A DNA stretch of 64,000 bases, taken from positions 1 to 64,000 of the forward strand of contig UYFQ01000576.1 in NCBI GenBank assembly GCA_900617105.1. The letters run 5' to 3'. Positions 1,739 to 51,131 of the stretch are shown here, one piece after another. The position numbers were made by a program, and so were the translations under genes. This stretch comes from Hydrurus foetidus. Taxonomy: Eukaryota. Numbering within the stretch: position 1 is the first letter of the stretch; every line of letters starts with the position of its first letter. A model generated the notes under the pieces. It searched no databases. It was not told the origin of the DNA and saw only the letters and a program-made list of their open reading frames with translations.

Positions 1739-3201
1739 ATCTTATACAAACATGTGTTATAAAAAACAATTATTTATTACATGCGAGTAATTCGGTTCAG
1801 ATTGAATAAAACAGTGCTTATCATTCAAATCACAGAAATGCAGAGTACGAGAATTAATCAGTACTGTGATTGAGAGTCACTGAAGAAGGATGAGAGTTTT
1901 AGATTGAATTCAGTTGTATTGCTACTGACTACAAAAATTCTCAATTCGTAACCGTTTCTGGCGTGCGATGTGTCTCCATGATACAAACAGCAGTCAAAAG
2001 ATACAGAGTACAACGTATCAGTTTCGATTAGCATATCTAATATGGGAGCAAGCAATGCCGCCCATTCCCTCCGCAGATTTCCTATGTGCTCACCACGGTC
2101 ATAAAACCCTTTGTTGTCGCCGTCCATATCATCAGGGGCGAGCACTTGGATACAGTTCGCATCTAATAATCAGCAAAAAAAAACATGGTATCAGTAAGAG
2201 CACAATAATTAACGGGTCGTAAGTCTACAGCACAAATGACTGTGGTAGCAGATAAGTTGTTGTCGAGAAGTGAGGGATTTCTCCGTAGAGTGCTAGGTGT
2301 TCAGCAGTTCTGACTATGCAGGGAATACTGAGGAACTCTTCGTCGAATACTGACGCAGCACTTAAGCTGCTAGAAACTATAAGTAAGAGAAATAGAGAAA
2401 ATTTGGGCAGCGATTCACCTCGCACCTTATCTAGTGTAAATTGTCAGCATCAATTAGCATTCAGAAAATAAGCATGTACTTGGCAGAAAATATTTTTGGT
2501 GAGGACATCAAATAAAGTTCACTTCCTGAGGGCTATATTGATAAGACGCTCACCGTGCAGATTGTTGAAGTTACGCTTCAACCTGCAAGTAGACCATTTC
2601 TTGACCTTGATTCTCTTATCCAACGCGAATAGCCCACTCGCTGTGCAATCGATAGTCACAATCAGCGGCATGACTAAAAAACAAGGTAATTGGAGGACAT
2701 GTCAATTTTGAAATTAAGTAGACCCCGTGGCCTGCCGGACAAAACAGATTCTGTTTCTATACATTTATCTTGAGGTCGATTAGCTGACAGTTCTGCAGAT
2801 TGGGCTATCCCTTAATAAATATTCAGCTGCTTACGGACCGTGTCGAAATTGATGATGGCTCCGTGCAAAAACTCCTGCGATGCGATCTGGTCTTCAACGA
2901 ATAGAACCTGTTGCACGATGAGAGAACAAAACTCAAGTGACAGAATGCACCACTCAGAATTGCAGGAGAAGCAATTTTGAATTTGTAGTTGTGCTTGGAG
3001 TGCAGAAGGTCCAATAAGTATGATCTCCTACTCCTCGGACAAAAAGAAGTCCTATGTCACGGGTATACTCTCAAGTCCCCCGCAAACATAGGGTCGGCGA
3101 CGGTACTACTGTAGCAGGTCGGCGGTCGGCGACAGTCAGTAATTTCCTGAATACGATCAATCGTACAATTAATTGTTGGTCACCTCTGGAAATACGGAAA
3201 T

Positions 3202-3592
3202 TGTTGGATATAGCATAGCTATCCCTATGGGGACAATCCCTTTGGGGAAATCCCTTTGGGGTAATATCATTCAAGCCCAAGCGGAGGAGCGAGGGTAGCG
3301 CTTTTGGACCCGAGACCATCACTCAAACTGTACTGGAAGTTGCAACTGATGATGACTGTGAACAGTCAACTGTAGCTAGTATAGCTAGCCATGAACTGCT
3401 TTGTTTTGACACAATGAGCACTTCTAATTAAAAGAGACTATATGGCTGTGTGCCATTATACCTACACTAGAGTGAGCTGTTGGAGCGACTTTGGTCGACT
3501 AGCTGAAAGCAAAGTGTGTTCTAAACGAATCACTGCTATCAACCAGGTGCTCTGACTGGACCTAGGATCCAAAAGACAGTTTTATTCCAAGA
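3202..3592 (+). repeat. 5' LTR (TGTTGGA...TCCAAGA)
   Basis: Aligns with 8700-9094; about ten substitutions and a few small indels by eye. Confidence 0.95.
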
Positions 3593-3603
3593 TAATTAGA
3601 AGT
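3593..3603 (+). promoter_or_regulatory. Putative self-complementary primer binding site (TAATTAGAAGT)
   Basis: Abuts the 5' LTR, lacks the TGG of a tRNA 3'-end PBS, and is the perfect reverse complement of ACTTCTAATTA at 3420-3430 inside the LTR (same 11-mer in the 3' LTR at 8922-8932). Confidence 0.7.
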
Positions 3604-3618
3604 CGCAAGCTGCTCAGA

Positions 3619-4730
3619 ATGAGCAAGCGAGGCGAGAAGGGCGCTGCCCAACCGAGATCCGAGAAGGGTGGAAAGTCTGAAAAATCCACGATCGGAGATG
3701 GCGTGAAGCCAGAGAATCTTCCTGAGATAGCCCACAATGGCTGGAAAGAATGGGACGACAACATGCAGATTCTGAAAGAGTACATGCGAGTCAACTTTCA
3801 AGACCTTGAGTCAATCTGTCCCGACCCCATGATGCTGTCGATAAAACCTGCATATGAGGTTTACGAATTCGCAGAACCCGACTATGCAAAACTCGAGGCT
3901 CTGGACGACACTACTGACCCAAAGGGATTTCGAGCAAAGCTAATGATGGCAGACTTGAATAGTGAGAGAGCAGTCGTGACAAAGATGAAAAAGAAGCAAA
4001 TGGAGGACCGACGATCAGCATATCGACTGATTCGATCGATGTGTTCACCATCGCTAAATGCGATTTTAATAGTGAATGCCAAATTCATCGCTGTCAAATT
4101 CGATGATCCACTCGAACTGCTTGCAGTAATCAAGTCAGTAGTCACATCCAGATGTGATGGAAATCAGGAATTAGAGCGGTCCCAGGCCCTACGGGACTGG
4201 TATACACTCACCATGAGTACGGGCGAAGAGATCGTAACGTACGGACGGCGCGCAGTCAAGCTTTTCGACCGACTTGCTGCGACAGGAGTACCAACAGCAC
4301 AAATTCCAGATGCAAAACAACAAGCCATGAGGTTAATTGATGGTCTAAGTAGCACCGTGCAGGTCTACCACGACTACAAAAACTACCTCAGCAACTCCCT
4401 CGAGTGCACCGCTATCGACATCTATCCGAAGACTTTGGTGGAGGCCATCAATGGAGCAACCCGATTCCATCGAGGGGCGAAGGGTAGCGCATTGCAATCA
4501 GCGATAGCGACTCCCCACACGGCACTTGCGGCGAAGAACCCTGGCAAACAGGGTGGTCCCCAAAGGGAGAAAAATCACCTGCCAAAGACAAGGCCAAAAA
4601 GATCGATGCTGACAAGATTAAGGAGCCGAAAGTGAAATTTGCTTAGGAAGCAAAGGAAGGCCAGTTCAGTGGAACCTGCTATTACTGCAAGAAAGTCGGT
4701 CACCGTGCTAGTGAGTGCAGAAAGAAGGCG
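3619..4730 (+). pseudogene. gag: Retrotransposon Gag with CCHC zinc knuckle, disrupted
   Basis: ORF 3619-4635. The knuckle GTCYYCKKVGHRASEC (from 4671) lies in another frame, reached by a frameshift near 4560-4575, and that frame has a TAG at 4644-4646. Confidence 0.85.
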
Positions 4731-4980
4731 GCGGATGAGGCCGATTCAGCACCAAAAACCTCATACTCGGCCATTAGACAAACCGACGAAGATGACACCA
4801 ACGCCGAAGACAATGGTATACAGCTTTTGGCCAAATGTGGGACCAAGAGGTTAACGAGAATCAATATGGCGACAGGCACTGTAGTGTGTGCCTCACCACC
4901 ACCTCACCGGTGGAAGTCGCAACCCTCGGTCCTCGGACTGATTTTTCCGCAAACCAAACATCAACCAACAAAGTACCTCG

Positions 4981-7900
4981 GAGGCCATCTTCGACACAGG
5001 AGCTACTGGAACCATCATTACATGTGCAGATGTTCTGACTGACATTGCAACATGCACTCCAACTGTATTCAAAGGCTTGCATGGTTCCCTTACTGTAACT
5101 AAAGCAGGACTTCTTCGAGACATTGGTATTGTTCATTTTGATCCGCGAGCTGGACTTTCCATCATCTCGGCATCGGATTGCCTGTTGCAAGGACACAACT
5201 GGGAGTTTCGCCAGGGTTCTACAATAGATCAAGATGCATTTCTGCTTCACACTGATCAGAATACCTACAAATTTCAACACCGTGGAGGGCTGTATGTCAG
5301 CGATTTGGCAACGCCTCCAGAGCCGCGATACTCTGACGCCGCAGAGCGCAGAAATGGATATGCACATCCCGCAGTGGTGAAAACACCATCTAGCAACTTA
5401 TTTTACTCTACAAAGCTAGAAACAACGGCAGGAAACGAAGCCAATTTCACAAAACGCGAAGTTCAAAGAAGCGTCGATGCACGACGTTTGCAAGCGAGTT
5501 TAGGATTTCCACCAGATCAGAAATTCATTTCTGCTTTGAGGGCTGGGACATTTCTCAACTGCGACATCTTACCTGAAGACATCGCACGTGCCACAGCAAT
5601 TTGGGGAGCAAGCACTGCTTCGCTCAAAGGACGCACTACTAGGCTGAGGCCTATGCCACCACCACAACTACCCACAACGGCCCGCAACATTGACGATCAA
5701 CACATGCATTGTGATGTCATGTTCATAAATCGACACCCATTTCTAGTTTCGATTACTCACCCACTGGGTATTGTTTTGGTGGCCTGCATTGAGAATCTCA
5801 CAAAGCCGGTGCTCCGACAGAGCATCAAGCGTATGTTCGGAACCATCGGGTCCCGACGCATTTCCATCGTGAAATTTACCAGCGATAATGAGAGAGGCAT
5901 TGCGGCACTTGTCAACGACATGAACGCCATGGGCGTCGAGGTCACTACAGTTGGTCCAGGGCAACACGATCACATTATTGAGCGAATGATCAGGCACCTG
6001 AAGGAGACCATCCGTTGTACCATCTTCAGCCTACCGTACCTCCTACCAGATATACTGATGCCTCATCTCGTCATGAGCTCAGCAAGGAAGCTTCTACTGT
6101 TTCCCTCATCAACTAGAACAGATAGGATCTCCCCATTCGAAGCATTCTTTGGAAGGAAGGCCGACACGAAAAAAGATATCGGACCGCCTTTCGGCTCATA
6201 CTGCCAAGTCACCGCAAGGGTGCTCAGCAACAACATGGATCCACGAACCATCGGATGCCTATACCTGGAACCAAAGATGAATGGCACAGGCACTCATTCC
6301 TTCATGCGCATCGATACAAGGAGCATTATATCGGCCAACCACTACGTGGTACTACCGATACCTACACTCGTCACCACCACTATAAATGAATGGGCATCGA
6401 AGAATAAAATCCACATATCGCAAGAATCGATATTCACTTTCCATGACAGAGACATCACTGGAGATATCGACGATGATGTGGTAACAATTCATACCCCTTC
6501 AGAATCGGAACCCACGATCCAATTCCGACACCCACCTCCCACACAACCGGTGTTCCGGGATGACACTGACACGCCTGATACCGTGATAGAACCTCAAATT
6601 ACACAAGAACAATTGGAGATTCGGGGTGAAATGGAATCAGCTGTCGATGAAAATGATAGTATTCCCACTACTGACGAAGTATCTGGGCCAGAAACTAATT
6701 TTGAATCGGTATCGGAGGAGCAACCAGAGGCACTACCTACCTCCGTGCGTACGTACGTGCCCAGTGCACCCATTGAAATGCGTGAGAAATCGACGAGAAT
6801 TCGAAAGCCACCAGACAGACTCAACTTAGTAGCTCAAAAACTACCTATTTCAACGTGGAAAGAAGGAATTAGGGGTGAGTGGTCATTAATGACAGTTACC
6901 CGGGCACTGAAACTTTTCCTGGACAAGGCTACCGCAGTCATCGAGTCAGAGGTCAAATCACTACTTGCCAAGGGGATATTTTCGGGTGTGCACATGGAAC
7001 AGCTATCACCTACTCAGAAGCAGAAGATACTGCGTTCTAACATGAATGTTGTGGAGAAATACCTCCCAACACTGAATCCGAATGGTGATCGCCAGATCGA
7101 CAAGGTCAAGGCACGTTTCTGTGTGGATGGGCGTGCTCAAGTTAGAGAAGACTACGCTGCAGATGAAGTTGAGTCACCTACAGCGACTATAGCTTCCATC
7201 TTTACAGTTGCACAAATTGCTGCTTTGGAAAACCGTTTCATTATGGTCGGGGACGTTGGGTCCGCGTACCTCAACGCCGATATGCCTAAGGAAAAACCGG
7301 ATAAAATCCTCCATATGTTCATTGATAAGAATGTGGCCGACGCAATCATCAAACAAGACAAATCATTTGAGTGCTACCGAAGACACAATGGAGGGTTAGT
7401 GGTGAGACTGGACAAAGCACTTTACGGGTGTATCGAGTCCGCCAAACTATGGTATAACGAAATAGCCGGAACACTTGGCCGTAATGGGTTTACGGCCAAC
7501 CCGCGCGATATTTGCGTCTTTAATAAGGACGTCAAAGGGAACCAATTTACTATCCTAGTCTACGTAGACGACTTAATGATGACGTGTGTGGACAAGAAAG
7601 CGGTTCTTGACATTGAGCAAATTTTGCTGAAAACGTACGGACAATTCCGTACCACTCAAGAGCGCGTCTACCGTACCTAGGTTGCATGTGGGATTACACT
7701 GAGGAAGGATTTGTAAAGGTCACACAGATCGGAATGATTCAAGATCTGATCTCATCAAGGGAAAAAAGCCATGCCGAACGAGGTATGAACCTCATTGGGA
7801 ATCCATCATCACCCGGTGCCCCACACCTATTTGAGCGGACCTTGGACTGCAAATTCCTGAATGAGAAAGACGCTAAAACCTTCCATACGGACGTCGCTAC

Positions 7901-8535
7901 AGCGCTATACCTGGGGAACCGAACGCGTCCGGATATCGTATTAGTGTTAGGTGAACTTTGCAAACGTGTAAAGGCACCAACAACAGAAGACGACAAGAAA
8001 CTTGATAGGCTCATATGCTATCTGAGGGCTACTAGAGACAAGCCCCTACGACTCGGTTGCACATTACCACCGACAGTTACAGTATCAATTGATGCTGCAT
8101 TTGCTAACCGAGATATGATGAAGTCAACTTCAGGAATGTGTGTCACATTGGGGGTGGGATATTTTATTACGAGTTCCAAGGTCCAGAGGCTCAATTCCAA
8201 GTCAAGTACGGAGTCCGAGATCATTGCAGTTTCCGACGGCATGAACATTCCGCTATGGCTTGCTGGGTTTATTGCGTACCAAGGACATGGAAAACACCCA
8301 GTGAGGCTGGAACAAGACAATCAATCATGCATTGCGCTGCTGAACAAAAGGTCGGTCTACCGCAGAGACCACCCGGTTTATTGAGGTACGGAAATTCTGG
8401 ATCTCAGACTACATCCGTATCGGTGCCGTAAACATTGTCTACGTGCCCACCGAGGATATGACATCCGATTACTACACCAAGCCACTACAAGGAACAATTT
8501 TTTCCAAGATGGTGAAGAAAATTATGGGAAATTAA
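4981..8535 (+). pseudogene. pol: Pol: protease, integrase, reverse transcriptase, RNase H; at least two frameshifts
   Basis: Protease AIFDTGATG at 4984; integrase HCDVMF / FTSDNE / ERMIRHLKE; RT KARFCVDG, DVGSAYLNA, ALYGCIES, YVDDL; RNase H DAAFA, SSTESE, QDNQSCI and terminal YVPTEDMTSDYYTKPLQG. Frameshifts near 7670 and 8350; stop TAA 8533-8535. Confidence 0.93.
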
Positions 8536-8689
8536 GTAGTATACACTATTGACTTACAGTTGAGCTATTTTTTAAAATTTTATTAGCAACAATACATGTT
8601 ATGATCACTATAGCTTACAGCAGATACAAATACGATTTATGTTTCATTCACATGAAAAAATACGAATATGCCGCCTGAATGCTTATGAC

Positions 8690-8699
8690 ATTAGGGGTG
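8690..8699 (+). promoter_or_regulatory. Polypurine tract (ATTAGGGGTG)
   Basis: Directly precedes the TG of the 3' LTR; identical 10-mer at 6868-6877. Confidence 0.75.
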
Positions 8700-9094
8700 T
8701 GTTGGATATAGCATAGCTATCCCTATGGGGACAATCCCTTTGGGGACAATCCCTTTGGGGTAATATCATTCAAGCCCAAGCGGAGGAGCGAGGGTAGCAC
8801 TTTTGGACCCGAGAACCATCACTCATGTGATGTACTGGAAGTTGCAACTGATGATGACTGTGAACAGTCAACTGTAGCTAGTTTAGCTAGGCATGAACTG
8901 CTTTGTATTGACACCCTGAGCACTTCTAATTAAAAGAGACTATATGGCTGTGTGCCATTATACCTACACTAGAGTGAGCTGTTGGAGCAACTTTGGTCGA
9001 CTAGCTGAAAGCAAAGTGTGTTCTAAACGAATCACCGCTATCAACCAGGTGCTCTGATTGGACCTAGGATCCACAAGACAGTTTTATTCCAAGA
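8700..9094 (+). repeat. 3' LTR
   Basis: Direct repeat of 3202-3592, followed by the GAAAT target duplication. Confidence 0.95.
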
Positions 9095-9267
9095 GAAATT
9101 GTGATTGAGTTGAACCTTCTCCTTTCTCCTGTACAGGAGGGTGAGTATTGTATAGGGCAGAGGGCAGATCGATCAGAGATCAGTACACAGCAGATCAGAT
9201 CTATAGATCTCAGACTGTCGAGTCCAATAACATATTCTGCGGCAGCGTGTTGACAGCCGACAAGAAA

Positions 9268-12099
9268 ATGATTCGGTGCGTAATCGCACTCTCTTCGCTA
9301 TTCGGAATTGTGGAGAGCTACCGTGGACATCGTTTTTTCAGTAATTGCTTGCATGCAACAACTTCAGCTTCTTCGACGACAACGAATGGAGGAATTACAG
9401 AAAGAGTGCTATCAGAGTCAAATCAGAAGAGTGATACGGCAGACTGGAGCACGCTTTTCGTGAACGCCCTGATAAAGTCTCCATTATACACACCAATAGT
9501 TGCACTCGCCCGAAATACTATGATTAAAACTGCTGCTAGTGTTGGCGTCGATTGGAAGGGGAAAGCATTATCACTACGTGAAATTAACAGAGATTGGCAA
9601 TCCGGAATCGAGAGCATAAAAGCACAGAGGAGACCTGATTACGTAACACCGCCTTATTATATGCAGCCTTTCCATGGTTACAAAGAAGGCAACCTATGTT
9701 TAGACGCTGCGCTTGAGCAAGAGCTAGCAGGTACTTTCTCAGGGAAAGAGAAATCATATCGCTGATCTGATAAGAAGGATCACCATTCATTCTACGAATA
9801 TTTTGCTCTAGGAAAAGCTGTAGGTGTTAGAAACTTTCCTGAGAAGGGGCTCGCTGGCGAAAGTTTTTTGCGAGAATGCTACGAAAAAGAAATATCAGCC
9901 TTGGGCGGATGCTTCTTACCTGATAATGCAGTCTGTGTGGATTTCGGCTGCGGAACAGGTGTGTATAGCTTGACTTGCTTTTCGATTGCTGTCTCTCATT
10001 GATGCCTCGAACAATTCTGTTGGAGTTTAGATTAGAGATTAGTCGTTCTCAGCAAGCACTCGGACACCGGTTCTGGTACCTAGAGGAATAGATAAGAGGG
10101 CTATGCAATGACGGCAAAATCGCTGAAAATGCAGAAGAAGAATTTAGCTTTTTGAGTTTAATGCGATTTCTACTATATTTCAAGTATTTGACTGCACTTT
10201 GATTAACATCCTTCCCATGAAGCATCATCAACAAAGCTGTCACAAATTGCATACGCTGATTCATTCATGCAATCAAAATGCAATTGCAAGTGACCCCGTG
10301 CGATCCTGGCCCATGTGAAGCACTCGATGGATGTCACTTGATCTGAACTGCCCTAATCTGACTTCTTCGAGAACACTTCCTTATCCTTCTCTTCCTTCCC
10401 TCCCCTTCTCTTCAATCTCTTCTCTTCCCTCATAGGAACTTCAACGAGAAGACTCGCGAAGTTGTTTCCCAAGGCATCGCGCATCTTGGGTGTGGACCTG
10501 TCCCCCCACATGTTGGCTATCGGGAAGTTCCTCATAGAGGAGGTGTCCGTCCCTGTCCCTTCTTCCGCCTCACCATCACTGTTATCATCAATGTCAGAGT
10601 TGAGGTCCAGTGCAAGCACATCCAGTAGAGGAGATGGAACCGAAGGAACGTACGGTGCGGAGAAGCAGAAGCAGTACGGTGCCTTCGAGTGGGTGGACCG
10701 CATCGAAGAGGACCCCCGCGTCGAGTTCCTCTACAGCGACATCAGCCACACAGACCTGCCCTCAGGTTACACTGCAACACGACCAACTCCTTCTCATTCC
10801 ATCGTTTGAGCGCTCATCTTCTCTTCTCATCATTGTGATCGATTGCTCTAATTTTTGCGGCAAAATGATTCAACGAAAGCGCTGAGCTGAGTGTTTATGA
10901 GCGGACAGACTTGTGTGCGTCGCATTGAACAGACGCAGAAACTCAGATGGAAACATGTGCCGCTGAAATATTAGAATCATAGACTAAAATAGAATAGTAT
11001 AGAATACAGAGATTTCAATGTGCATGGAGGGAGGGTGGAGTGGAGTGGAGTTACTTATTGTCTGTAAAATGTGTCGATAGGTAACGCGCATGCATGGAAG
11101 GGTGACCTTGCTTTCCTTCTCGCACCGACTACAACACTGCCTTGAAACATTAACTACATCGCATCGTATCGCATCATAGCATGCGATGCAATGCAACTGC
11201 GTTACTTCAGCTCGTCTTCATTTTGACTGCATCTCATCTCATCTCATTTTGCATCGCAACATACTGAATCACATCTTGGGATCCCTCCCTGTTCCACTCC
11301 ACCTCAATCTCCGGCACGCAATATGATGATCTCCTTCTGTTCGGCTACTGCACGCAGGCTCTGTCGGATTCGTGAACATCTGCCTGGTGCTGCACGAGCT
11401 GCCCGAAGCCGCTTCGAAAGAAGTGCTGTCAGAGGCCTTCAGGATCCTGCAACCGGGAGGCACTCTCGCGATGTCAGTACAGTAGAGTACAGAGTAATCA
11501 TGCATTACCTCTTTCCCTCTTTATATCTCCCCTCTCTCTATCTCTCTCTGTGATTGTTTCCCCCTCTCTCTTTGTCTCTCTCTCATTCCATCCCATCCCA
11601 TCCTGCAGAATGGAGATGGACCCCAGTGCCCCAGGGTACATCAAGCTGCAGAAGACTCCCTGGCTGTACGCCATCCTGAAGAGCACCGAGCCATACCTCG
11701 AGGAGTACTTCAACATGGCGCCCAAGATGCAGAACATTCTCACTGACATAGGTGAGCCAATCCCTGCTATCTAGTAGGCCTGACATGATCCGTCACAGGG
11801 AGTGTCATAGATAGAGGGAGATGCATGTCACGTCTACAATCTACAGTGAGAGCACCCCTAATACTCCTCTTCTCTATATTGCTCTGTACTGTATTGCATT
11901 CACTGTATTGCTTTGACCAGGGTTCTCTGTCGTGCGCACTTCAGCAGCCACAGGCAGACACCTCACCGTGGTAGCCATCAAGAGCGGGGTGTCCGATGTG
12001 CGTCCCTCCTCCGAAGTCAGGGAGAAAAGCGACTCCCACCTCAACACCATGGAAAAACAGGCGCCTCCAGGCAAAGGCAGGAAGGGCATCTCCAAGTAG
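9268..12099 (+). CDS. Class I SAM-dependent methyltransferase (Methyltransf_11/25-like), 6 exons, probable plastid targeting
   Basis: Exons 9268-9730, 9812-9958, 10436-10765, 11358-11472, 11609-11751, 11921-12099; all GT-AG with consistent phases. Splicing restores VDFGCGTG-TSTRRLA, then GVDLSPHML and LVLHELP...EAFRILQPGG. N-terminus MIRCVIALSSLFGIVES-Y followed by a Ser/Thr-rich stretch. Confidence 0.9.
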
Positions 12100-22300: not shown

Positions 22301-25300
22301 AGCAATAGTCGTAGTGATAGTGATGGTTTAGGCAGAATAAGGTGATCAGTCAATGCGATACGATGAGTCAATGTCACAACATGATGGTTGAGCAAAGGGG
22401 AGGAGAGTGCAATGGTGAGTGATCGCGGACACATGCGGTGGATAGGCAAGCACATTTCGAGGAACAGAACGGGAGACAACTGGAGACAACAGATTTGAAG
22501 AGCATCAAACGGTAAGTTACAGCAGCTAACATAAAGATATCACGGGTGAGTTCGCAGTGAAAATGAAGGCAGGAAATAGAGAGATAAAGATATGCGGGTA
22601 GGCAAGTACCTCTTTTTTGTCGCTGATGGAGAGAGTGGGCTCCTTCATGACCTCGTCCCTCACTTCCGCTATTCGCAGCTTGATGTCTTCTTTGAAGGCG
22701 TGCTGCTTGGACATCTCTCCTACAGGACAGCACAGCGCATGATGTGGTGTGACAGGATGTGATTTGACAGAGCAGAAGAGGTAAAGCAACGGAAAGGCAT
22801 AGATAAGTGATGTGTAGTATGCACAGTAATCATACAAGAACCAAACACTATTTCCCTCTCTCCATTCCTCTCTTCTCTTCCTTCGCGTATTCAATACCTC
22901 CCTCCCTCCCTCCACTGTGTCTGTATCAACACATCCCTCTCCCTCTCCCTCCCCCCTCTCGCTCCCTCCCTCTCCGTCAGTTTAGAGCTCGCTTACCTCC
23001 CTTGCAACAGATCTGCTCCACCACCACATTGATCAGCCGAGGCTTGTTGTCCGCCTGAGATGACAAAGAGAGGAAAACAGAACAGAAAATAGAAGAGGGG
23101 AGAAGATAATGGAAGTGCGTCAGGGAACAGAACGATAAGTTTTCTGTGCGATAAAAGCAGTGCAACTCTTTCACGCTTCACATTTTAAAATATCATTTCA
23201 CTTCAGGTCGTATCATTTTTTGTATCGAAAGGTCTGGATGGTGGTGATGTTCATTTCGTGCGTCATCAGTGCAGTGCAGTGCATCCTCTCAAGATTCAGA
23301 ATATGGACCCATCCATCCATCCACCCCTCCCTCCCTCCCTTTCTTGAAACTTCTTTATTTCTCCACTCACCTTGAGCGGCTCTACGCTGATGCCCATTCG
23401 CAGGAAGAGTGCACCCGAGTCGAACACATATCTGTCCAGGAAGGATCCCGTGAGGTCAGCAGATGCTCCCGAACTCGCTCGCACCTTGAAGTGAGACGCG
23501 AAGAGGAAATGACAGTCAAGGCTTACGGAGAGAGGGGAGGAAGAGGGGTGAGAATAGGACAGACGTTCACTCGTGAATCTTTATACGAGATAAGGGTAGG
23601 GTAGGGTAGGGTAGGAGAAGAAGCCACAACTGTACAGAAACCCTGATTTTTGATCTGATCTGTTGTGATATGACACGAAGTGATTTGATACGATCGAGTA
23701 GGCGTGCTTACTGGTCGGTATGTTGACTCACTCGCGCAGGTATACACATGAAAGAAGTCACACTGCCTCATTCAGGTATGCACATGAAAGAAGTCACACT
23801 GCCTCATTCAGGTATACACATGAAAGAAGTCACACTGCCTCATTCAGGTATACACATGAAAGAAGTCACACTGCCTCATTCAGGTATACACATGAAAGAA
23901 GTCACACTGCCTCATTCAGGTATACACATGAAAGAAGTCACACTGCCTCATTCAGGTATACACATGAAAGAAGTCACACTGCCTCATGCAGGTATACACA
24001 TGAAAGAAGTCACACTGCCTCATGCAGGTATCCACATGAAAGAAGTCACACTGCCTCATGCAGGTATCCACATGAAAGAAGTCACACTGCCTCATGCAGG
24101 TATCCACATGAAAGAAGTCACACTGCCTCATGCAGGTATCCACATGAAAGAAGTCACACTGCCTCATGCAGGTATACACATGAAAGAAGTCACACTGCCT
24201 CATGCAGGTATCCACATGAAAGAAGTCACACTGCCTCATGCAGGTATCCACATGAAAGAAGTCACACTGCCTCATGCAGGTATACACATGAAAGAAGTCA
24301 CACTGCCTCATGCAGGTATCCACATGAAAGAAGTCACACTGCCTCATGCAGGTATACACATGAAAGAAGTCACACTGCCTCATGCAGGTATCCACATGAA
24401 AGAAGTCACACTGCCTCATGCAGGTATCCACATGAAAGAAGTCACACTGCCTCATGCAGGTATCCACATGAAAGAAGTCACACTGCCTCATGCAGGTATA
24501 CACATGAAAGAAGTCACACTGCCTCATGCAGGTATACACATGAAAGAAGTCACACTGCCTCATGCAGGTATACACATGAAAGAAGTCACACTGCCTCATG
24601 CAGGTATACACATGAAAGAAGTCACACTGCCTCATGCAGGTATCCACATGAAAGAAGTCACACTGCCTCATGCAGGTATCCACATGAAAGAAGTCACACT
24701 GCCTCATGCAGGTATACACATGAAAGAAGTCACACTGCCTCATGCAGGTATACACATGAAAGAAGTCACACTGCCTCATGCAGGTATCCACATGAAAGAA
24801 GTCACACTGCCTCATGCAGGTATACACATGAAAGAAGTCACACTGCCTCATGCAGGTATCCACATGAAAGAAGTCACACTGCCTCATGCAGGTATCCACA
24901 TGAAAGAAGTCACACTGCCTCATGCAGGTATCCACATGAAAGAAGTCACACTGCCTCATGCAGGTATCCACATGAAAGAAGTCACACTGCCTCATGCAGG
25001 TATACACATGAAAGAAGTCACACTGCCTCATGCAGGTATACACATGAAAGAAGTCACACTGCCTCATGCAGGTATCCACATGAAAGAAGTCACACTGCCT
25101 CATGCAGGTATCCACATGAAAGAAGTCACACTGCCTCATGCAGGTATACACATGAAAGAAGTCACACTGCCTCATGCAGGTATCCACATGAAAGAAGTCA
25201 CACTGCCTCATGCAGGTATCCACATGAAAGAAGTCACACTGCCTCATGCAGGTATACACATGAAAGAAGTCACACTGCCTCATGCAGGTATACACATGAA

Positions 25301-28300
25301 AGAAGTCACACTGCCTCATGCAGGTATCCACATGAAAGAAGTCACACTGCCTCATGCAGGTATCCACATGAAAGAAGTCACACTGCCTCATGCAGGTATC
25401 CACATGAAAGAAGTCACACTGCCTCATGCAGGTATCCACATGAAAGAAGTCACACTGCCTCATGCAGGTATCCACATGAAAGAAGTCACACTGCCTCATG
25501 CAGGTATACACATGAAAGAAGTCACACTGCCTCATGCAGGTATCCACATGAAAGAAGTCACACTGCCTCATGCAGGTATCCACATGAAAGAAGTCACACT
25601 GCCTCATGCAGGTATACACATGAAAGAAGTCACACTGCCTCATGCAGGTATCCACATGAAAGAAGTCACACTGCCTCATGCAGGTATACACATGAAAGAA
25701 GTCACACTGCCTCATGCAGGTATCCACATGAAAGAAGTCACACTGCCTCATGCAGGTATCCACATGAAAGAAGTCACACTGCCTCATGCAGGTATCCACA
25801 TGAAAGAAGTCACACTGCCTCATGCAGGTATCCACATGAAAGAAGTCACACTGCCTCATGCAGGTATCCACATGAAAGAAGTCACACTGCCTCATGCAGG
25901 TATACACATGAAAGAAGTCACACTGCCTCATGCAGGTATACACATGAAAGAAGTCACACTGCCTCATGCAGGTATACACATGAAAGAAGTCACACTGCCT
26001 CATGCAGGTATCCACATGAAAGAAGTCACACTGCCTCATGCAGGTATCCACATGAAAGAAGTCACACTGCCTCATGCAGGTATCCACATGAAAGAAGTCA
26101 CACTGCCTCATGCAGGTATACACATGAAAGAAGTCACACTGCCTCATGCAGGTATCCACATGAAAGAAGTCACACTGCCTCATGCAGGTATACACATGAA
26201 AGAAGTCACACTGCCTCATGCAGGTATACACATGAAAGAAGTCACACTGCCTCATGCAGGTATCCACATGAAAGAAGTCACACTGCCTCATGCAGGTATC
26301 CACATGAAAGAAGTCACACTGCCTCATGCAGGTATCCACATGAAAGAAGTCACACTGCCTCATGCAGGTATACACATGAAAGAAGTCACACTGCCTCATG
26401 CAGGTATACACATGAAAGAAGTCACACTGCCTCATGCAGGTATACACATGAAAGAAGTCACACTGCCTCATGCAGGTATACACATGAAAGAAGTCACACT
26501 GCCTCATGCAGGTATACACATGAAAGAAGTCACACTGCCTCATGCAGGTATCCACATGAAAGAAGTCACACTGCCTCATGCAGGTATCCACATGAAAGAA
26601 GTCACACTGCCTCATGCAGGTATCCACATGAAAGAAGTCACACTGCCTCATGCAGGTATCCACATGAAAGAAGTCACACTGCCTCATGCAGGTATCCACA
26701 TGAAAGAAGTCACACTGCCTCATGCAGGTATCCACATGAAAGAAGTCACACTGCCTCATGCAGGTATACACATGAAAGAAGTCACACTGCCTCATGCAGG
26801 TATCCACATGAAAGAAGTCACACTGCCTCATGCAGGTATACACATGAAAGAAGTCACACTGCCTCATGCAGGTATCCACATGAAAGAAGTCACACTGCCT
26901 CATGCAGGTATCCACATGAAAGAAGTCACACTGCCTCATGCAGGTATCCACATGAAAGAAGTCACACTGCCTCATGCAGGTATCCACATGAAAGAAGTCA
27001 CACTGCCTCATGCAGGTATACACATGAAAGAAGTCACACTGCCTCATGCAGGTATCCACATGAAAGAAGTCACACTGCCTCATGCAGGTATACACATGAA
27101 AGAAGTCACACTGCCTCATGCAGGTATCCACATGAAAGAAGTCACACTGCCTCATGCAGGTATCCACATGAAAGAAGTCACACTGCCTCATGCAGGTATC
27201 CACATGAAAGAAGTCACACTGCCTCATGCAGGTATCCACATGAAAGAAGTCACACTGCCTCATGCAGGTATCCACATGAAAGAAGTCACACTGCCTCATG
27301 CAGGTATCCACATGAAAGAAGTCACACTGCCTCATGCAGGTATCCACATGAAAGAAGTCACACTGCCTCATGCAGGTATACACATGAAAGAAGTCACACT
27401 GCCTCATGCAGGTATCCACATGAAAGAAGTCACACTGCCTCATGCAGGTATACACATGAAAGAAGTCACACTGCCTCATGCAGGTATACACATGAAAGAA
27501 GTCACACTGCCTCATGCAGGTATCCACATGAAAGAAGTCACACTGCCTCATGCAGGTATCCACATGAAAGAAGTCACACTGCCTCATGCAGGTATACACA
27601 TGAAAGAAGTCACACTGCCTCATGCAGGTATCCACATGAAAGAAGTCACACTGCCTCATGCAGGTATACACATGAAAGAAGTCACACTGCCTCATGCAGG
27701 TATCCACATGAAAGAAGTCACACTGCCTCATGCAGGTATACACATGAAAGAAGTCACACTGCCTCATGCAGGTATCCACATGAAAGAAGTCACACTGCCT
27801 CATGCAGGTATCCACATGAAAGAAGTCACACTGCCTCATGCAGGTATCCACATGAAAGAAGTCACACTGCCTCATGCAGGTATCCACATGAAAGAAGTCA
27901 CACTGCCTCATGCAGGTATCCACATGAAAGAAGTCACACTGCCTCATGCAGGTATACACATGAAAGAAGTCACACTGCCTCATGCAGGTATCCACATGAA
28001 AGAAGTCACACTGCCTCATGCAGGTATCCACATGAAAGAAGTCACACTGCCTCATGCAGGTATCCACATGAAAGAAGTCACACTGCCTCATGCAGGTATC
28101 CACATGAAAGAAGTCACACTGCCTCATGCAGGTATACACATGAAAGAAGTCACACTGCCTCATGCAGGTATCCACATGAAAGAAGTCACACTGCCTCATG
28201 CAGGTATCCACATGAAAGAAGTCACACTGCCTCATGCAGGTATCCACATGAAAGAAGTCACACTGCCTCATGCAGGTATCCACATGAAAGAAGTCACACT

Positions 28301-31300
28301 GCCTCATGCAGGTATCCACATGAAAGAAGTCACACTGCCTCATGCAGGTATACACATGAAAGAAGTCACACTGCCTCATGCAGGTATCCACATGAAAGAA
28401 GTCACACTGCCTCATGCAGGTATCCACATGAAAGAAGTCACACTGCCTCATGCAGGTATACACATGAAAGAAGTCACACTGCCTCATGCAGGTATACACA
28501 TGAAAGAAGTCACACTGCCTCATGCAGGTATCCACATGAAAGAAGTCACACTGCCTCATGCAGGTATACACATGAAAGAAGTCACACTGCCTCATGCAGG
28601 TATACACATGAAAGAAGTCACACTGCCTCATGCAGGTATCCACATGAAAGAAGTCACACTGCCTCATGCAGGTATCCACATGAAAGAAGTCACACTGCCT
28701 CATGCAGGTATACACATGAAAGAAGTCACACTGCCTCATGCAGGTATACACATGAAAGAAGTCACACTGCCTCATGCAGGTATACACATGAAAGAAGTCA
28801 CACTGCCTCATGCAGGTATCCACATGAAAGAAGTCACACTGCCTCATGCAGGTATCCACATGAAAGAAGTCACACTGCCTCATGCAGGTATCCACATGAA
28901 AGAAGTCACACTGCCTCATGCAGGTATCCACATGAAAGAAGTCACACTGCCTCATGCAGGTATCCACATGAAAGAAGTCACACTGCCTCATGCAGGTATC
29001 CACATGAAAGAAGTCACACTGCCTCATGCAGGTATCCACATGAAAGAAGTCACACTGCCTCATGCAGGTATACACATGAAAGAAGTCACACTGCCTCATG
29101 CAGGTATCCACATGAAAGAAGTCACACTGCCTCATGCAGGTATCCACATGAAAGAAGTCACACTGCCTCATGCAGGTATCCACATGAAAGAAGTCACACT
29201 GCCTCATGCAGGTATACACATGAAAGAAGTCACACTGCCTCATGCAGGTATCCACATGAAAGAAGTCACACTGCCTCATGCAGGTATCCACATGAAAGAA
29301 GTCACACTGCCTCATGCAGGTATCCACATGAAAGAAGTCACACTGCCTCATGCAGGTATACACATGAAAGAAGTCACACTGCCTCATGCAGGTATCCACA
29401 TGAAAGAAGTCACACTGCCTCATGCAGGTATACACATGAAAGAAGTCACACTGCCTCATGCAGGTATCCACATGAAAGAAGTCACACTGCCTCATGCAGG
29501 TATCCACATGAAAGAAGTCACACTGCCTCATGCAGGTATCCACATGAAAGAAGTCACACTGCCTCATGCAGGTATACACATGAAAGAAGTCACACTGCCT
29601 CATGCAGGTATCCACATGAAAGAAGTCACACTGCCTCATGCAGGTATACACATGAAAGAAGTCACACTGCCTCATGCAGGTATCCACATGAAAGAAGTCA
29701 CACTGCCTCATGCAGGTATACACATGAAAGAAGTCACACTGCCTCATGCAGGTATCCACATGAAAGAAGTCACACTGCCTCATGCAGGTATCCACATGAA
29801 AGAAGTCACACTGCCTCATGCAGGTATACACATGAAAGAAGTCACACTGCCTCATGCAGGTATCCACATGAAAGAAGTCACACTGCCTCATGCAGGTATC
29901 CACATGAAAGAAGTCACACTGCCTCATGCAGGTATCCACATGAAAGAAGTCACACTGCCTCATGCAGGTATCCACATGAAAGAAGTCACACTGCCTCATG
30001 CAGGTATCCACATGAAAGAAGTCACACTGCCTCATGCAGGTATCCACATGAAAGAAGTCACACTGCCTCATGCAGGTATCCACATGAAAGAAGTCACACT
30101 GCCTCATGCAGGTATCCACATGAAAGAAGTCACACTGCCTCATGCAGGTATCCACATGAAAGAAGTCACACTGCCTCATGCAGGTATCCACATGAAAGAA
30201 GTCACACTGCCTCATGCAGGTATCCACATGAAAGAAGTCACACTGCCTCATGCAGGTATCCACATGAAAGAAGTCACACTGCCTCATGCAGGTATCCACA
30301 TGAAAGAAGTCACACTGCCTCATGCAGGTATCCACATGAAAGAAGTCACACTGCCTCATGCAGGTATCCACATGAAAGAAGTCACACTGCCTCATGCAGG
30401 TATCCACATGAAAGAAGTCACACTGCCTCATGCAGGTATCCACATGAAAGAAGTCACACTGCCTCATGCAGGTATCCACATGAAAGAAGTCACACTGCCT
30501 CATGCAGGTATCCACATGAAAGAAGTCACACTGCCTCATGCAGGTACCACATGAAAGAAGTCACACTGCCTCATGCAGGTATCCACATGAAAGAAGTCAC
30601 ACTGCCTCATGCAGGTATCCACATGAAAGAAGTCACACTGCCTCATGCAGGTATCCACATGAAAGAAGTCACACTGCCTCATGCAGGTATCCACATGAAA
30701 GAAGTCACACTGCCTCATGCAGGTATACACATGAAAGAAGTCACACTGCCTCATGCAGGTATACACATGAAAGAAGTCACACTGCCTCATGCAGGTATAC
30801 ACATGAAAGAAGTCACACTGCCTCATGCAGGTATACACATGAAAGAAGTCACACTGCCTCATGCAGGTATACACATGAAAGAAGTCACACTGCCTCATGC
30901 AGGTATCCACATGAAAGAAGTCACACTGCCTCATGCAGGTATCCACATGAAAGAAGTCACACTGCCTCATGCAGGTATACACATGAAAGAAGTCACACTG
31001 CCTCATGCAGGTATCCACATGAAAGAAGTCACACTGCCTCATGCAGGTATACCACATGAAAGAAGTCACACTGCCTCATGCAGGTATACACATGAAAGAA
31101 GTCACACTGCCTCATGCAGGTATACACATGAAAGAAGTCACACTGCCTCATGCAGGTATACACATGAAAGAAGTCACACTGCCTCATGCAGGTATACACA
31201 TGAAAGAAGTCACACTGCCTCATGCAGGTATCCACATGAAAGAAGTCACACTGCCTCATGCAGGTATCCACATGAAAGAAGTCACACTGCCTCATGCAGG

Positions 31301-34300
31301 TATACACATGAAAGAAGTCACACTGCCTCATGCAGGTATCCACATGAAAGAAGTCACACTGCCTCATGCAGGTATCCACATGAAAGAAGTCACACTGCCT
31401 CATGCAGGTATCCACATGAAAGAAGTCACACTGCCTCATGCAGGTATCCACATGAAAGAAGTCACACTGCCTCATGCAGGTATACACATGAAAGAAGTCA
31501 CACTGCCTCATGCAGGTATACACATGAAAGAAGTCACACTGCCTCATGCAGGTATCCACATGAAAGAAGTCACACTGCCTCATGCAGGTATCCACATGAA
31601 AGAAGTCACACTGCCTCATGCAGGTATCCACATGAAAGAAGTCACACTGCCTCATGCAGGTATCCACATGAAAGAAGTCACACTGCCTCATGCAGGTATC
31701 CACATGAAAGAAGTCACACTGCCTCATGCAGGTATACACATGAAAGAAGTCACACTGCCTCATGCAGGTATCCACATGAAAGAAGTCACACTGCCTCATG
31801 CAGGTATCCACATGAAAGAAGTCACACTGCCTCATGCAGGTATACACATGAAAGAAGTCACACTGCCTCATGCAGGTATACACATGAAAGAAGTCACACT
31901 GCCTCATGCAGGTATCCACATGAAAGAAGTCACACTGCCTCATGCAGGTATCCACATGAAAGAAGTCACACTGCCTCATGCAGGTATACACATGAAAGAA
32001 GTCACACTGCCTCATGCAGGTATCCACATGAAAGAAGTCACACTGCCTCATGCAGGTATACACATGAAAGAAGTCACACTGCCTCATGCAGGTATCCACA
32101 TGAAAGAAGTCACACTGCCTCATGCAGGTATACACATGAAAGAAGTCACACTGCCTCATGCAGGTATCCACATGAAAGAAGTCACACTGCCTCATGCAGG
32201 TATCCACATGAAAGAAGTCACACTGCCTCATGCAGGTATCCACATGAAAGAAGTCACACTGCCTCATGCAGGTATCCACATGAAAGAAGTCACACTGCCT
32301 CATGCAGGTATCCACATGAAAGAAGTCACACTGCCTCATGCAGGTATCCACATGAAAGAAGTCACACTGCCTCATGCAGGTATACACATGAAAGAAGTCA
32401 CACTGCCTCATGCAGGTATCCACATGAAAGAAGTCACACTGCCTCATGCAGGTATCCACATGAAAGAAGTCACACTGCCTCATGCAGGTATCCACATGAA
32501 AGAAGTCACACTGCCTCATGCAGGTATCCACATGAAAGAAGTCACACTGCCTCATGCAGGTATACACATGAAAGAAGTCACACTGCCTCATGCAGGTATC
32601 CACATGAAAGAAGTCACACTGCCTCATGCAGGTATCCACATGAAAGAAGTCACACTGCCTCATGCAGGTATCCACATGAAAGAAGTCACACTGCCTCATG
32701 CAGGTATCCACATGAAAGAAGTCACACTGCCTCATGCAGGTATACACATGAAAGAAGTCACACTGCCTCATGCAGGTATCCACATGAAAGAAGTCACACT
32801 GCCTCATGCAGGTATCCACATGAAAGAAGTCACACTGCCTCATGCAGGTATCCACATGAAAGAAGTCACACTGCCTCATGCAGGTATACACATGAAAGAA
32901 GTCACACTGCCTCATGCAGGTATCCACATGAAAGAAGTCACACTGCCTCATGCAGGTATCCACATGAAAGAAGTCACACTGCCTCATGCAGGTATCCACA
33001 TGAAAGAAGTCACACTGCCTCATGCAGGTATCCACATGAAAGAAGTCACACTGCCTCATGCAGGTATCCACATGAAAGAAGTCACACTGCCTCATGCAGG
33101 TATACACATGAAAGAAGTCACACTGCCTCATGCAGGTATACACATGAAAGAAGTCACACTGCCTCATGCAGGTATACCACATGAAAGAAGTCACACTGCC
33201 TCATGCAGGTATCCACATGAAAGAAGTCACACTGCCTCATGCAGGTATACACATGAAAGAAGTCACACTGCCTCATGCAGGTATACACATGAAAGAAGTC
33301 ACACTGCCTCATGCAGGTATACACATGAAAGAAGTCACACTGCCTCATGCAGGTATACACATGAAAGAAGTCACACTGCCTCATGCAGGTATCCACATGA
33401 AAGAAGTCACACTGCCTCATGCAGGTATCCACATGAAAGAAGTCACACTGCCTCATGCAGGTATCCACATGAAAGAAGTCACACTGCCTCATGCAGGTAT
33501 ACACATGAAAGAAGTCACACTGCCTCATGCAGGTATCCACATGAAAGAAGTCACACTGCCTCATGCAGGTATCCACATGAAAGAAGTCACACTGCCTCAT
33601 GCAGGTATCCACATGAAAGATGAGAGAAGTCACACTGCCTCATGCAGGTATACACATGAAAGAAGTCACACTGCCTCATGCAGGTATACACATGAAAGAA
33701 GTCACACTGCCTCATGCAGGTATCCACATGAAAGAAGTCACACTGCCTCATGCAGGTATCCACATGAAAGAAGTCACACTGCCTCATGCAGGTATCCACA
33801 TGAAAGAAGTCACACTGCCTCATGCAGGTATACACATGAAAGAAGTCACACTGCCTCATGCAGGTATCCACATGAAAGAAGTCACACTGCCTCATGCAGG
33901 TATCCACATGAAAGAAGTCACACTGCCTCATGCAGGTATACACATGAAAGAAGTCACACTGCCTCATGCAGGTATCCACATGAAAGAAGTCACACTGCCT
34001 CATGCAGGTATACACATGAAAGAAGTCACACTGCCTCATGCAGGTATCCACATGAAAGAAGTCACACTGCCTCATGCAGGTATACACATGAAAGAAGTCA
34101 CACTGCCTCATGCAGGTATCCACATGAAAGAAGTCACACTGCCTCATGCAGGTATACACATGAAAGAAGTCACACTGCCTCATGCAGGTATACACATGAA
34201 AGAAGTCACACTGCCTCATGCAGGTATCCACATGAAAGAAGTCACACTGCCTCATGCAGGTATACACATGAAAGAAGTCACACTGCCTCATGCAGGTATA

Positions 34301-37300
34301 CACATGAAAGAAGTCACACTGCCTCATGCAGGTATACACATGAAAGAAGTCACACTGCCTCATGCAGGTATACACATGAAAGAAGTCACACTGCCTCATG
34401 CAGGTATCCACATGAAAGAAGTCACACTGCCTCATGCAGGTATCCACATGAAAGAAGTCACACTGCCTCATGCAGGTATCCACATGAAAGAAGTCACACT
34501 GCCTCATGCAGGTATACACATGAAAGAAGTCACACTGCCTCATGCAGGTATCCACATGAAAGAAGTCACACTGCCTCATGCAGGTATCCACATGAAAGAA
34601 GTCACACTGCCTCATGCAGGTATCCACATGAAAGAAGTCACACTGCCTCATGCAGGTATACACATGAAAGAAGTCACACTGCCTCATGCAGGTATACACA
34701 TGAAAGAAGTCACACTGCCTCATGCAGGTATACACATGAAAGAAGTCACACTGCCTCATGCAGGTATACACATGAAAGAAGTCACACTGCCTCATGCAGG
34801 TATCCACATGAAAGAAGTCACACTGCCTCATGCAGGTATACACATGAAAGAAGTCACACTGCCTCATGCAGGTATCCACATGAAAGAAGTCACACTGCCT
34901 CATGCAGGTATCCACATGAAAGAAGTCACACTGCCTCATGCAGGTATACACATGAAAGAAGTCACACTGCCTCATGCAGGTATCCACATGAAAGAAGTCA
35001 CACTGCCTCATGCAGGTATACCACATGAAAGAAGTCACACTGCCTCATGCAGGTATACACATGAAAGAAGTCACACTGCCTCATGCAGGTATACACATGA
35101 AAGAAGTCACACTGCCTCATGCAGGTATCCACATGAAAGAAGTCACACTGCCTCATGCAGGTATCCACATGAAAGAAGTCACACTGCCTCATGCAGGTAT
35201 ACACATGAAAGAAGTCACACTGCCTCATGCAGGTATCCACATGAAAGAAGTCACACTGCCTCATGCAGGTATACACATGAAAGAAGTCACACTGCCTCAT
35301 GCAGGTATACACATGAAAGAAGTCACACTGCCTCATGCAGGTATCCACATGAAAGAAGTCACACTGCCTCATGCAGGTATACACATGAAAGAAGTCACAC
35401 TGCCTCATGCAGGTATCCACATGAAAGAAGTCACACTGCCTCATGCAGGTATACACATGAAAGAAGTCACACTGCCTCATGCAGGTATCCACATGAAAGA
35501 AGTCACACTGCCTCATGCAGGTATACACATGAAAGAAGTCACACTGCCTCATGCAGGTATACACATGAAAGAAGTCACACTGCCTCATGCAGGTATACAC
35601 ATGAAAGAAGTCACACTGCCTCATGCAGGTATCCACATGAAAGAAGTCACACTGCCTCATGCAGGTATACACATGAAAGAAGTCACACTGCCTCATGCAG
35701 GTATCCACATGAAAGAAGTCACACTGCCTCATGCAGGTATACACATGAAAGAAGTCACACTGCCTCATGCAGGTATCCACATGAAAGAAGTCACACTGCC
35801 TCATGCAGGTATCCACATGAAAGAAGTCACACTGCCTCATGCAGGTATCCACATGAAAGAAGTCACACTGCCTCATGCAGGTATACACATGAAAGAAGTC
35901 ACACTGCCTCATGCAGGTATACACATGAAAGAAGTCACACTGCCTCATGCAGGTATACACATGAAAGAAGTCACACTGCCTCATGCAGGTATACACATGA
36001 AAGAAGTCACACTGCCTCATGCAGGTATCCACATGAAAGAAGTCACACTGCCTCATGCAGGTATCCACATGAAAGAAGTCACACTGCCTCATGCAGGTAT
36101 ACACATGAAAGAAGTCACACTGCCTCATGCAGGTATCCACATGAAAGAAGTCACACTGCCTCATGCAGGTATCCACATGAAAGAAGTCACACTGCCTCAT
36201 GCAGGTATCCACATGAAAGAAGTCACACTGCCTCATGCAGGTATACACATGAAAGAAGTCACACTGCCTCATGCAGGTATACACATGAAAGAAGTCACAC
36301 TGCCTCATGCAGGTATACACATGAAAGAAGTCACACTGCCTCATGCAGGTATACACATGAAAGAAGTCACACTGCCTCATGCAGGTATCCACATGAAAGA
36401 AGTCACACTGCCTCATGCAGGTATACACATGAAAGAAGTCACACTGCCTCATGCAGGTATCCACATGAAAGAAGTCACACTGCCTCATGCAGGTATACAC
36501 ATGAAAGAAGTCACACTGCCTCATGCAGGTATCCACATGAAAGAAGTCACACTGCCTCATGCAGGTATACACATGAAAGAAGTCACACTGCCTCATGCAG
36601 GTATCCACATGAAAGAAGTCACACTGCCTCATGCAGGTATACACATGAAAGAAGTCACACTGCCTCATGCAGGTATACACATGAAAGAAGTCACACTGCC
36701 TCATGCAGGTATCCACATGAAAGAAGTCACACTGCCTCATGCAGGTATCCACATGAAAGAAGTCACACTGCCTCATGCAGGTATCCACATGAAAGAAGTC
36801 ACACTGCCTCATGCAGGTATCCACATGAAAGAAGTCACACTGCCTCATGCAGGTATACACATGAAAGAAGTCACACTGCCTCATGCAGGTATACACATGA
36901 AAGAAGTCACACTGCCTCATGCAGGTATCCACATGAAAGAAGTCACACTGCCTCATGCAGGTATCCACATGAAAGAAGTCACACTGCCTCATGCAGGTAT
37001 CCACATGAAAGAAGTCACACTGCCTCATGCAGGTATACACATGAAAGAAGTCACACTGCCTCATGCAGGTATCCACATGAAAGAAGTCACACTGCCTCAT
37101 GCAGGTATCCACATGAAAGAAGTCACACTGCCTCATGCAGGTATCCACATGAAAGAAGTCACACTGCCTCATGCAGGTATCCACATGAAAGAAGTCACAC
37201 TGCCTCATGCAGGTATCCACATGAAAGAAGTCACACTGCCTCATGCAGGTATACACATGAAAGAAGTCACACTGCCTCATGCAGGTATACACATGAAAGA

Positions 37301-45589: not shown

Positions 45590-46083
45590 GACGCCACAAT
45601 AGCAGCTGTCACTGCTGAGTCCTAAGAAGGAATGACGCAACAGATCTTCCTCATGCTTGACATTGCTTCCTTAAAATCTACAGCAGGGCGTGCACTGTGT
45701 ACTCAGCACTCAGCACTCTGCTGGGCTGCTGTAGACTGTAGAGTGGTTTACGGTTCACCTACCGTCGAGTCCCCTACCTTCGTCATAACACCGAACCTAT
45801 ACGAAAAATTTCGCGGTGAAAGCGGTCTCAGGGCCATTCTACACGGCGACAAATTTTGGTAAATTTTAGTAAATTTTGGTAAAATCAGTCTTGCGTTGAT
45901 TCTAGACGGGAAACGCTGTTTTTAATTGAATTTAGCAAAATTGATGTGAATTCAGTTCATTTCACTCTACACGGCGCGACTCAATACATCTTATCAACTC
46001 AATGATGATACAGTACTTGCGTACTGCATGTCTTTTAAAGAGGTGACTTCGTCTGCAATCACAATTTGAGGAGGCATTCCCAA

Positions 46084-51013: not shown

Positions 51014-51131
51014 AAACATAATCACAGTATTGCTTGCTAATAATATTGTTAACTCATACCATGCTGTAGGATATCATTAACTTTCAATTAATAATATAAT
51101 TTCAATTTTGCGAAAACTAAAAGTTTTTTTT

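What the first reader, a model, noticed from the sequence alone, without database searches (positions are those of the whole stretch)
3420..3617. Candidate tRNA-independent, self-priming Ty1/copia retrotransposon
Seen: the 11 nt directly after the 5' LTR (TAATTAGAAGT, 3593-3603) do not start with TGG and do not resemble the half-tRNA-iMet PBS (GGTTATGGGCCC) used by copia/Ty5. They are the exact reverse complement of ACTTCTAATTA at 3420-3430, which is conserved in both LTRs. Paired this way, the 3' end of the 11-mer sits on the first PBS base, ready to extend into U5. TGAGC (3415-3419) could also pair with GCTCA (3612-3616) across an 8-nt bulge. Established: S. pombe Tf1, a Ty3/gypsy element, primes minus-strand synthesis with the first 11 nt of its own transcript annealed to a PBS abutting the LTR, after RNase H-dependent cleavage. 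Inference: this copia lineage reached the same mechanism independently, with transcription starting near 3420. I do not recall self-priming being established for copia elements, but could not check the literature.
Basis: partly seen in the sequence, partly recalled or inferred. Interest (0 to 1): 0.88.

Follow-up and report, generated by a model that had tools for sequence, protein, structure and literature searches.

The report
Self-priming copia retrotransposon lineage
This jumping gene has a primer site that pairs perfectly with a piece of its own terminal repeat, distant relatives keep that pairing with different letters, and so the group likely starts copying itself with the front end of its own RNA instead of a borrowed tRNA, a trick proven in a yeast element and already predicted for one plant lineage.

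Summary
Confirmed. A full-length, frameshifted copia element (3202-9094) has 11 bases after its 5' LTR that exactly complement LTR bases 3420-3430 (0 of 2000 shuffles).

Of 13 locatable junctions in distant relatives, 12 show the same geometry (9 of 10 families; 9-16 bp). Each matches its own LTR and not other families' (at most 8). One sibling pair differs by 3 of 3 compensatory changes. The LTR arm starts at an initiator-like CA in 8 of 10 families. Tf1-like self-priming is likely (0.78). Start site, cleavage and primer are untested.

(1) Copia self-priming is already predicted in print, for plant TAR elements.
(2) This PBS also fits 10 bases of a tRNA-Arg(UCU) half, a live rival for this family only.
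(3) The TGAGC/GCTCA extension is not supported by folding.

I found no paper describing self-priming in this aquatic, probably algal lineage. Its independence from TAR was not tested directly. The scan has noted the same signature before in diatom-type copia elements of other genomes.

The parts
3197..3201 (+). Target-site duplication GAAAT, left copy (right copy 9095-9099)
3202..3592 (+). 5' LTR, 391 bp, begins TGTTGG and ends CCAAGA (non-canonical GA end)
   Evidence: 378 matches, 13 mismatches, 4 gap columns against the 3' LTR
3420..3430 (+). Predicted self-primer: LTR arm complementary to the PBS; A3420 follows a C (initiator-like), inferred first base of the RNA
   Evidence: the start site itself is not shown
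3593..3603 (+). Primer-binding site abutting the LTR; 3595-3604 also complements a tRNA-Arg(UCU) anticodon arm
3611..3625 (+). Predicted 6-bp hairpin covering the gag start codon (ATG at 3619)
   Evidence: P 0.86; prediction only
3619..8532 (+). gag-protease-integrase-RT-RNase H coding region in copia order, broken into six tblastn segments by frame changes near the gag end, near 7668 and near 8347
   Evidence: tblastn of intact 1639-aa family members at 92-99% identity; RVT_2 and zinc knuckle hits; domain order read from motifs
8690..8699 (+). Polypurine-tract region ending GGGGTG, as in most relatives
8700..9094 (+). 3' LTR, 395 bp, with the second copy of the arm at 8922-8932

Best explanation
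The 11 bases after the 5' LTR pair exactly with an 11-base stretch inside the LTR, and this likely lets the element prime its own reverse transcription as yeast Tf1 does. Inferred steps: transcription starts at or next to A3420; the first 11 bases fold onto the PBS and close a 162-base loop; a cut after base 11, by analogy made by the element's RNase H, frees a 3'-OH opposite the first PBS base; RT then copies U5 and R. The trait belongs to a broad lineage of copia elements from aquatic, probably algal hosts, with duplexes of 9-16 bp. This copy is frameshifted; intact family members exist.
For: Shown: exact 11-bp duplex abutting an independently fixed LTR end. 12 of 13 junctions in relatives at 24-35% protein identity have a 9-16 bp duplex starting at the first base after the LTR; 0 shuffles reach it in 10 of the 12, 2 of 2000 for L003 and 25 of 2000 for L012. 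Each PBS matches its own LTR; matches across families reach at most 8. Two sibling junctions in L004 differ at 3 arm positions and 3 PBS positions, all compensatory. CA with its A at or one before the arm start in 8 of 10 families, nominal P 9e-7 (motif noticed after the fact). No PBS fits a tRNA 3' end; 11 of 12 relatives' junctions fit tRNA halves no better than shuffles. No variant at 3% share or more was listed in either arm among family contigs, while 3412-3414 and 3605-3607 vary (only P about 0.07). Established: Tf1 mechanism (PMC7175516, passages); the same signature was used to predict self-priming of Tj1 and TAR.
Against: No start site, cleavage or primer was observed; only contigs were available. 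This family's PBS also fits a tRNA-Arg(UCU) half over 10 bases, and host tRNAs were not available. L002 shows no duplex (best 5), though its 5' LTR may be incomplete. Relatives' LTR ends were set by hand after the inverted repeats had been seen; an automatic search found only L003's and then failed. With 40 downstream bases the predicted duplex holds in only 8 of 13 elements; 4 of 4 retested recover it with 20 bases. The L004 compensation rests on two sequences (54 of 500 shuffles as high) and may be one event. No DNA of close relatives (60-75% identity) could be fetched.
Confidence: 0.78

Rival explanations
1. This family primes with a 5' half of host tRNA-Arg(UCU) annealed at 3595-3604, two bases from the LTR; the LTR arm is a relic, a helper or a second option.
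For: All 119 viral-contig hits to an anticodon-arm pattern give at least 10 matches for a half ending at base 39, and 111 are called tRNA-Arg(tct) by ARAGORN. The match is built into the pattern; what the call shows is that the motif is a real tRNA arm. Candida albicans elements have PBSs matching an internal part of tRNA-Arg(UCU) (PMC4139406, passages). Half-tRNA priming is a copia trait (PMC1181622, PMC10886601, passages). C3604, needed only by the tRNA, shows no listed variant.
Against: Hemivirus halves prime from base 40; no half ending at 40 matched in 119. Longer matches (11-13) run into 3605-3607, which vary within the family. Shuffled PBSs reach 9-12 against the same panel now and then (maxima of 60 shuffles). 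Relatives do not fit tRNA halves, except L012 at 9. The self-match is longer, has no gap, and has the same geometry as in all relatives. The panel was viral (312 tRNAs, 34 anticodons, 98 of them TCT), not the host's.
Confidence: 0.1
2. The duplex is selected but serves another purpose, such as closing the 5' RNA domain for packaging, dimerisation or translation control, and the primer is something else.
For: Covariation shows pairing, not priming. Fungal GalEa copia elements lack a PBS and carry a conserved hairpin of unknown role at this place (PMC5445492, section 10). The arm overlaps an ATTAAA at 3427-3432 that could be a polyadenylation signal (sequence; inference).
Against: The 3' end of the arm faces the first base after the LTR in all 13 positive junctions, which is where a primer must end (offset control), and no other primer site is evident.
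Confidence: 0.1
3. Chance inverted repeat in A+T-rich sequence.
For: Three other inverted repeats of 10 bp with arms within 400 bases lie in the 5.9-kb element.
Against: Position-specific tests.
Confidence: 0.02

Closest known systems
Tf1/Tf2 of Schizosaccharomyces pombe and the Tf1/sushi group, Tj1, Tcn1 (Ty3/gypsy)
   Same: PBS complementary to an LTR-internal stretch; 11 bases in Tf1 and here; no tRNA 3'-end match.
   Different: Other superfamily (integrase before RT here). Tf1 priming is shown by experiment, this is not. Duplex length here varies from 9 to 16 bp across the lineage.
TAR lineage of plant Ty1/copia (Houba, Osr-1, Fourf)
   Same: Copia elements predicted to self-prime: 89% of 203 (PMC6317226); 5-bp target duplication.
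   Different: Described from plants. This lineage comes from aquatic metagenomes and scores only 58-98 bits on RVT_2, with no rve, SH3 or gag-pre-integrase hit in 12 of 12 polyproteins. That suggests a distant branch, but no TAR sequence was compared.
CoDi lineages of diatom copia (Maumus 2009)
   Same: Probable kin, by recalled motif likeness and by the scan's earlier notes; aquatic habitat.
   Different: The paper's main text has no occurrence of 'tRNA' and none of PBS in this sense. Membership was not tested with reference sequences.
Hemiviruses (copia, Ty5, Osser) and Candida elements with tRNA-Arg(UCU) internal PBS
   Same: PBS not starting with TGG; this family has a 10-base match to the tRNA-Arg(UCU) anticodon arm.
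   Different: Relatives lack tRNA-half matches and match their own LTR instead.
Fungal GalEa elements with a Conserved Hairpin Site
   Same: Copia elements without a tRNA PBS; their first 9-mer variant shares TAATTAG with this PBS.
   Different: Their partner lies 12-41 bases downstream and the authors found no LTR complement; here it lies 88-199 bases upstream of the LTR end, inside the LTR.

Membership tests
Ty1/copia LTR retrotransposon | Two LTRs, 5-bp target duplication, PPT | tested here: met
Ty1/copia LTR retrotransposon | RVT_2-type RT, with integrase upstream of RT | tested here: met
   RVT_2 67-70 bits. Integrase placed by D, D, E-type motifs at residues 698-790, before RT at 1165-1320; there is no Pfam rve hit, so that assignment is by motif.
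Ty1/copia LTR retrotransposon | TG...CA termini | tested here: not met
   TG...GA in both LTRs; no C variant listed at 3591 in family contigs. Non-TGCA elements are known in print (listing only), so this does not exclude it.
Self-priming elements (Tf1 type) | PBS next to the LTR complementary to an LTR-internal stretch | tested here: met
Self-priming elements (Tf1 type) | Complementarity kept with changed letters in relatives | tested here: met
   12 of 13 junctions
Self-priming elements (Tf1 type) | No host tRNA or fragment fits the PBS | tested here: inconclusive
   No 3'-end match; 10-base match to a tRNA-Arg(UCU) half in a viral panel; no host tRNAs
Self-priming elements (Tf1 type) | The stretch is the RNA's 5' end | tested here: inconclusive
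   Initiator-like CA in 8 of 10 families; no raw RNA reads
Self-priming elements (Tf1 type) | RNase H cuts after the duplex and the fragment primes | not testable with these tools
   needs biochemistry
Tf1/sushi group (membership) | Ty3/gypsy RT and gene order | tested here: not met
   copia RT and order: works like Tf1, is not a member
TAR lineage | RT/RH/INT clustering with TAR references | not testable with these tools
   Reference FASTA of PMC6317226 too large to read; only indirect Pfam evidence against
CoDi lineages | RT clustering with CoDi references | not tested
   No labelled references were obtained; the tree has none, and the Atlas did not answer

The most novel reading that the evidence does not exclude
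A third lineage that self-primes independently of Tf1/sushi and TAR, in which this family is caught mid-switch: its PBS accepts both its own 5' end and a tRNA-Arg(UCU) half, and the fold-back junction at exactly the duplex is a genomic footprint of PBS-directed priming or insertion.
Probability: 0.12. Interest if true: 0.8.

Novelty: new variant of a known kind. Interest (0 to 1): 0.55.

Why it matters
Self-priming has been shown by experiment in the gypsy element Tf1; for copia I found only predictions. A broad, old copia lineage with an element-specific duplex gives natural compensatory variants for a test. It also bears on whether tRNA priming or self-priming came first in LTR elements (PMC3601003 proposes hairpin priming was earlier; passages). 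Such elements would not depend on host tRNA sequence, and annotation tools that demand a tRNA PBS or TG...CA ends would miss them (inference).

Tried and rejected
No host genome is held, so host tRNAs and sibling copies could not be listed.

Viral contigs gave no relatives. Genome contigs gave one fragment without the junction.

Of the 24 metagenome loci, 12 were left out because they lack a 5' junction. L005, L013, L017 and L020-L023 were inspected. L015, L016, L018, L019 and L024 are short fragments matching only from residue 754 onward.

RNA runs were uninformative. X19 had 4 contigs laid; one crosses 3420 and runs past the LTR end into other sequence. X20 had none. Contigs cannot show a start.

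The automatic LTR-boundary script failed. The RT tree was the quick version with long branches and no labelled references; it shows only that self-pairing elements are spread widely.

PDB sequence search gave nothing significant. The ESM Atlas did not answer. The primary Tf1 papers are not held.

Full report
ELEMENT. The finding lies in a complete LTR retrotransposon at 3202-9094. The LTRs (391 and 395 bp) differ at 13 of 391 aligned positions, are flanked by GAAAT and end in GA, not CA. Gag starts at 3619. Intact 1639-aa family members align at 92-99% in six segments, so this copy is frameshifted. RT is of the RVT_2 type and lies after the integrase motifs: copia. The DNA occurs in a coded organism and in freshwater, sediment and biofilm metagenomes. 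An algal host is my inference, not a result.

OBSERVATION. Bases 3593-3603 are the exact reverse complement of 3420-3430; 0 of 2000 shuffles match as well. The duplex has predicted probability 0.89-0.96 in fragments of several lengths. The proposed TGAGC/GCTCA extension has at most 0.002, because GCTCA is predicted to pair with the gag start region. It would also need a start upstream of 3420.

RELATIVES. One metagenome scan returned 24 loci. In 12 of them I could locate an LTR and the bases after it, giving 13 junctions; the other 12 loci lack that junction. Twelve of the 13 have a perfect duplex of 9-16 bp beginning at the first base after the LTR, with the arm starting 88-199 bases before the LTR end. 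L008, L009 and L011 are one family and L004 holds two siblings, so this is 9 of 10 families. L002 has none. Controls: shuffles (0 in ten cases, 2 and 25 of 2000 in two), cross-matching between families (at most 8), and offsets, which peak at the LTR edge. The L004 siblings differ at three arm and three PBS positions, all compensatory (two sequences only). The boundaries in relatives were set by hand after I had seen the repeats. They are backed by terminal inverted repeats of 4-8 of 8 bases and, in most, a PPT before the start. With 40 downstream bases the folding model keeps the duplex in 8 of 13 elements; four retested with 20 bases all regain it.

START SITE. No raw RNA reads were available. 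Indirectly, a CA with its A at or one base before the arm's first paired base occurs in 8 of 10 families including the window (nominal P 9e-7), often as TCA. This resembles a polymerase II initiator (consensus recalled) and was noticed after the fact.

WITHIN THE FAMILY. Contigs of three runs list 32 variable places in 3360-3640 and none in either arm, while the bases beside both arms vary. Alone this is weak (P about 0.07). Two runs of one study carry a contig that folds back exactly at the duplex. It was the only opposite-strand joint among 15 shown of 43. I treat it as suggestive only.

THE tRNA RIVAL. Bases 3595-3604 complement the anticodon arm of tRNA-Arg(UCU), a tRNA whose internal part matches PBSs of Candida elements (PMC4139406, passages). 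This needs a half ending at base 39 and a two-base gap. Hemiviruses prime from base 40 (PMC1181622, passages), and no half ending at 40 matched among 119. Against 312 viral tRNAs, 11 of 12 relatives' junctions score 4-6, as shuffles do; L012 scores 9. The panel was chosen on the window's motif and is not the host's. The rival therefore stands for this family only, at about 0.1.

MECHANISM. Shown: the duplex, its position and its covariation. Inferred from Tf1 (PMC7175516, passages): start at the arm, annealing to the PBS, RNase H cut after the duplex, extension into U5.

LITERATURE. Self-priming is predicted for plant TAR copia elements (PMC6317226: passages and supplementary table 5; its large table and FASTA could not be read and may bear on lineage placement). 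Searches for self-priming with copia, diatom, Houba or algae found no paper on this lineage; 'self-prim + copia + diatom' gave two papers, and the passages I read propose nothing of the kind. The library lacks most subscription papers. Other papers seen as passages only: PMC2806351, PMC4600332, PMC5341516, PMC5776459, PMC10886601. The scan holds 31 notes with these words in at least 6 genomes, mostly diatom copia among the 8 shown; they are unchecked and were not used as support.

VERDICT. Real and lineage-wide. It likely works like Tf1 but is not a member of that group. It is probably distinct from TAR, on indirect evidence only. A new variant of a known kind; interest 0.55.

Noticed in passing
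runs X1, X2 laid on window 3419/3603: A contig joins 3419 (+) to 3603 (-) with the 11 duplex bases fitting both sides, at depth 143 and 140, like other low-depth contigs. It was absent in X3, X10, X7, X19, X20; X1 and X2 are one study. It fits a cDNA end annealing by its PBS copy to an LTR arm (as Tf1 does; PMC11042837, abstract and passages), an over-long self-primer, a plain inversion or a library fold-back.
   Followed up: partly
window 3591-3592 and 9093-9094; L006 130-534: Non-canonical LTR ends: TG...GA in this family, with no C variant listed; CG...CG in L006, whose end is confirmed by the 3' LTR of L005.
   Followed up: partly
window 23736-38864: Array of 420 copies of a 36-bp unit, 98% matches, with very long open frames on both strands.
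   Followed up: no
window 46039-58684: Cluster of at least four DDE_Tnp_4/Plant_tran (Harbinger-type, name recalled) transposase genes with neighbouring ORFs.
   Followed up: no
L014 5776-6621: Extra 258-aa ORF between pol and the 3' LTR with no Pfam hit.
   Followed up: partly
L008 2810/2814, L009 658/662, L011 5480/5484, L013 708/712: gag and pol separated by a single in-frame stop in all four related contigs, suggesting read-through.
   Followed up: no
run X1 laid on window 3593/3202: A contig joins an LTR end to an LTR start through a 23-base spacer, depth 93.
   Followed up: no
window 9145-10809: Exons of a host methyltransferase-like gene start just after the 3' LTR (weak Methyltransf_25 hit).
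   Followed up: no
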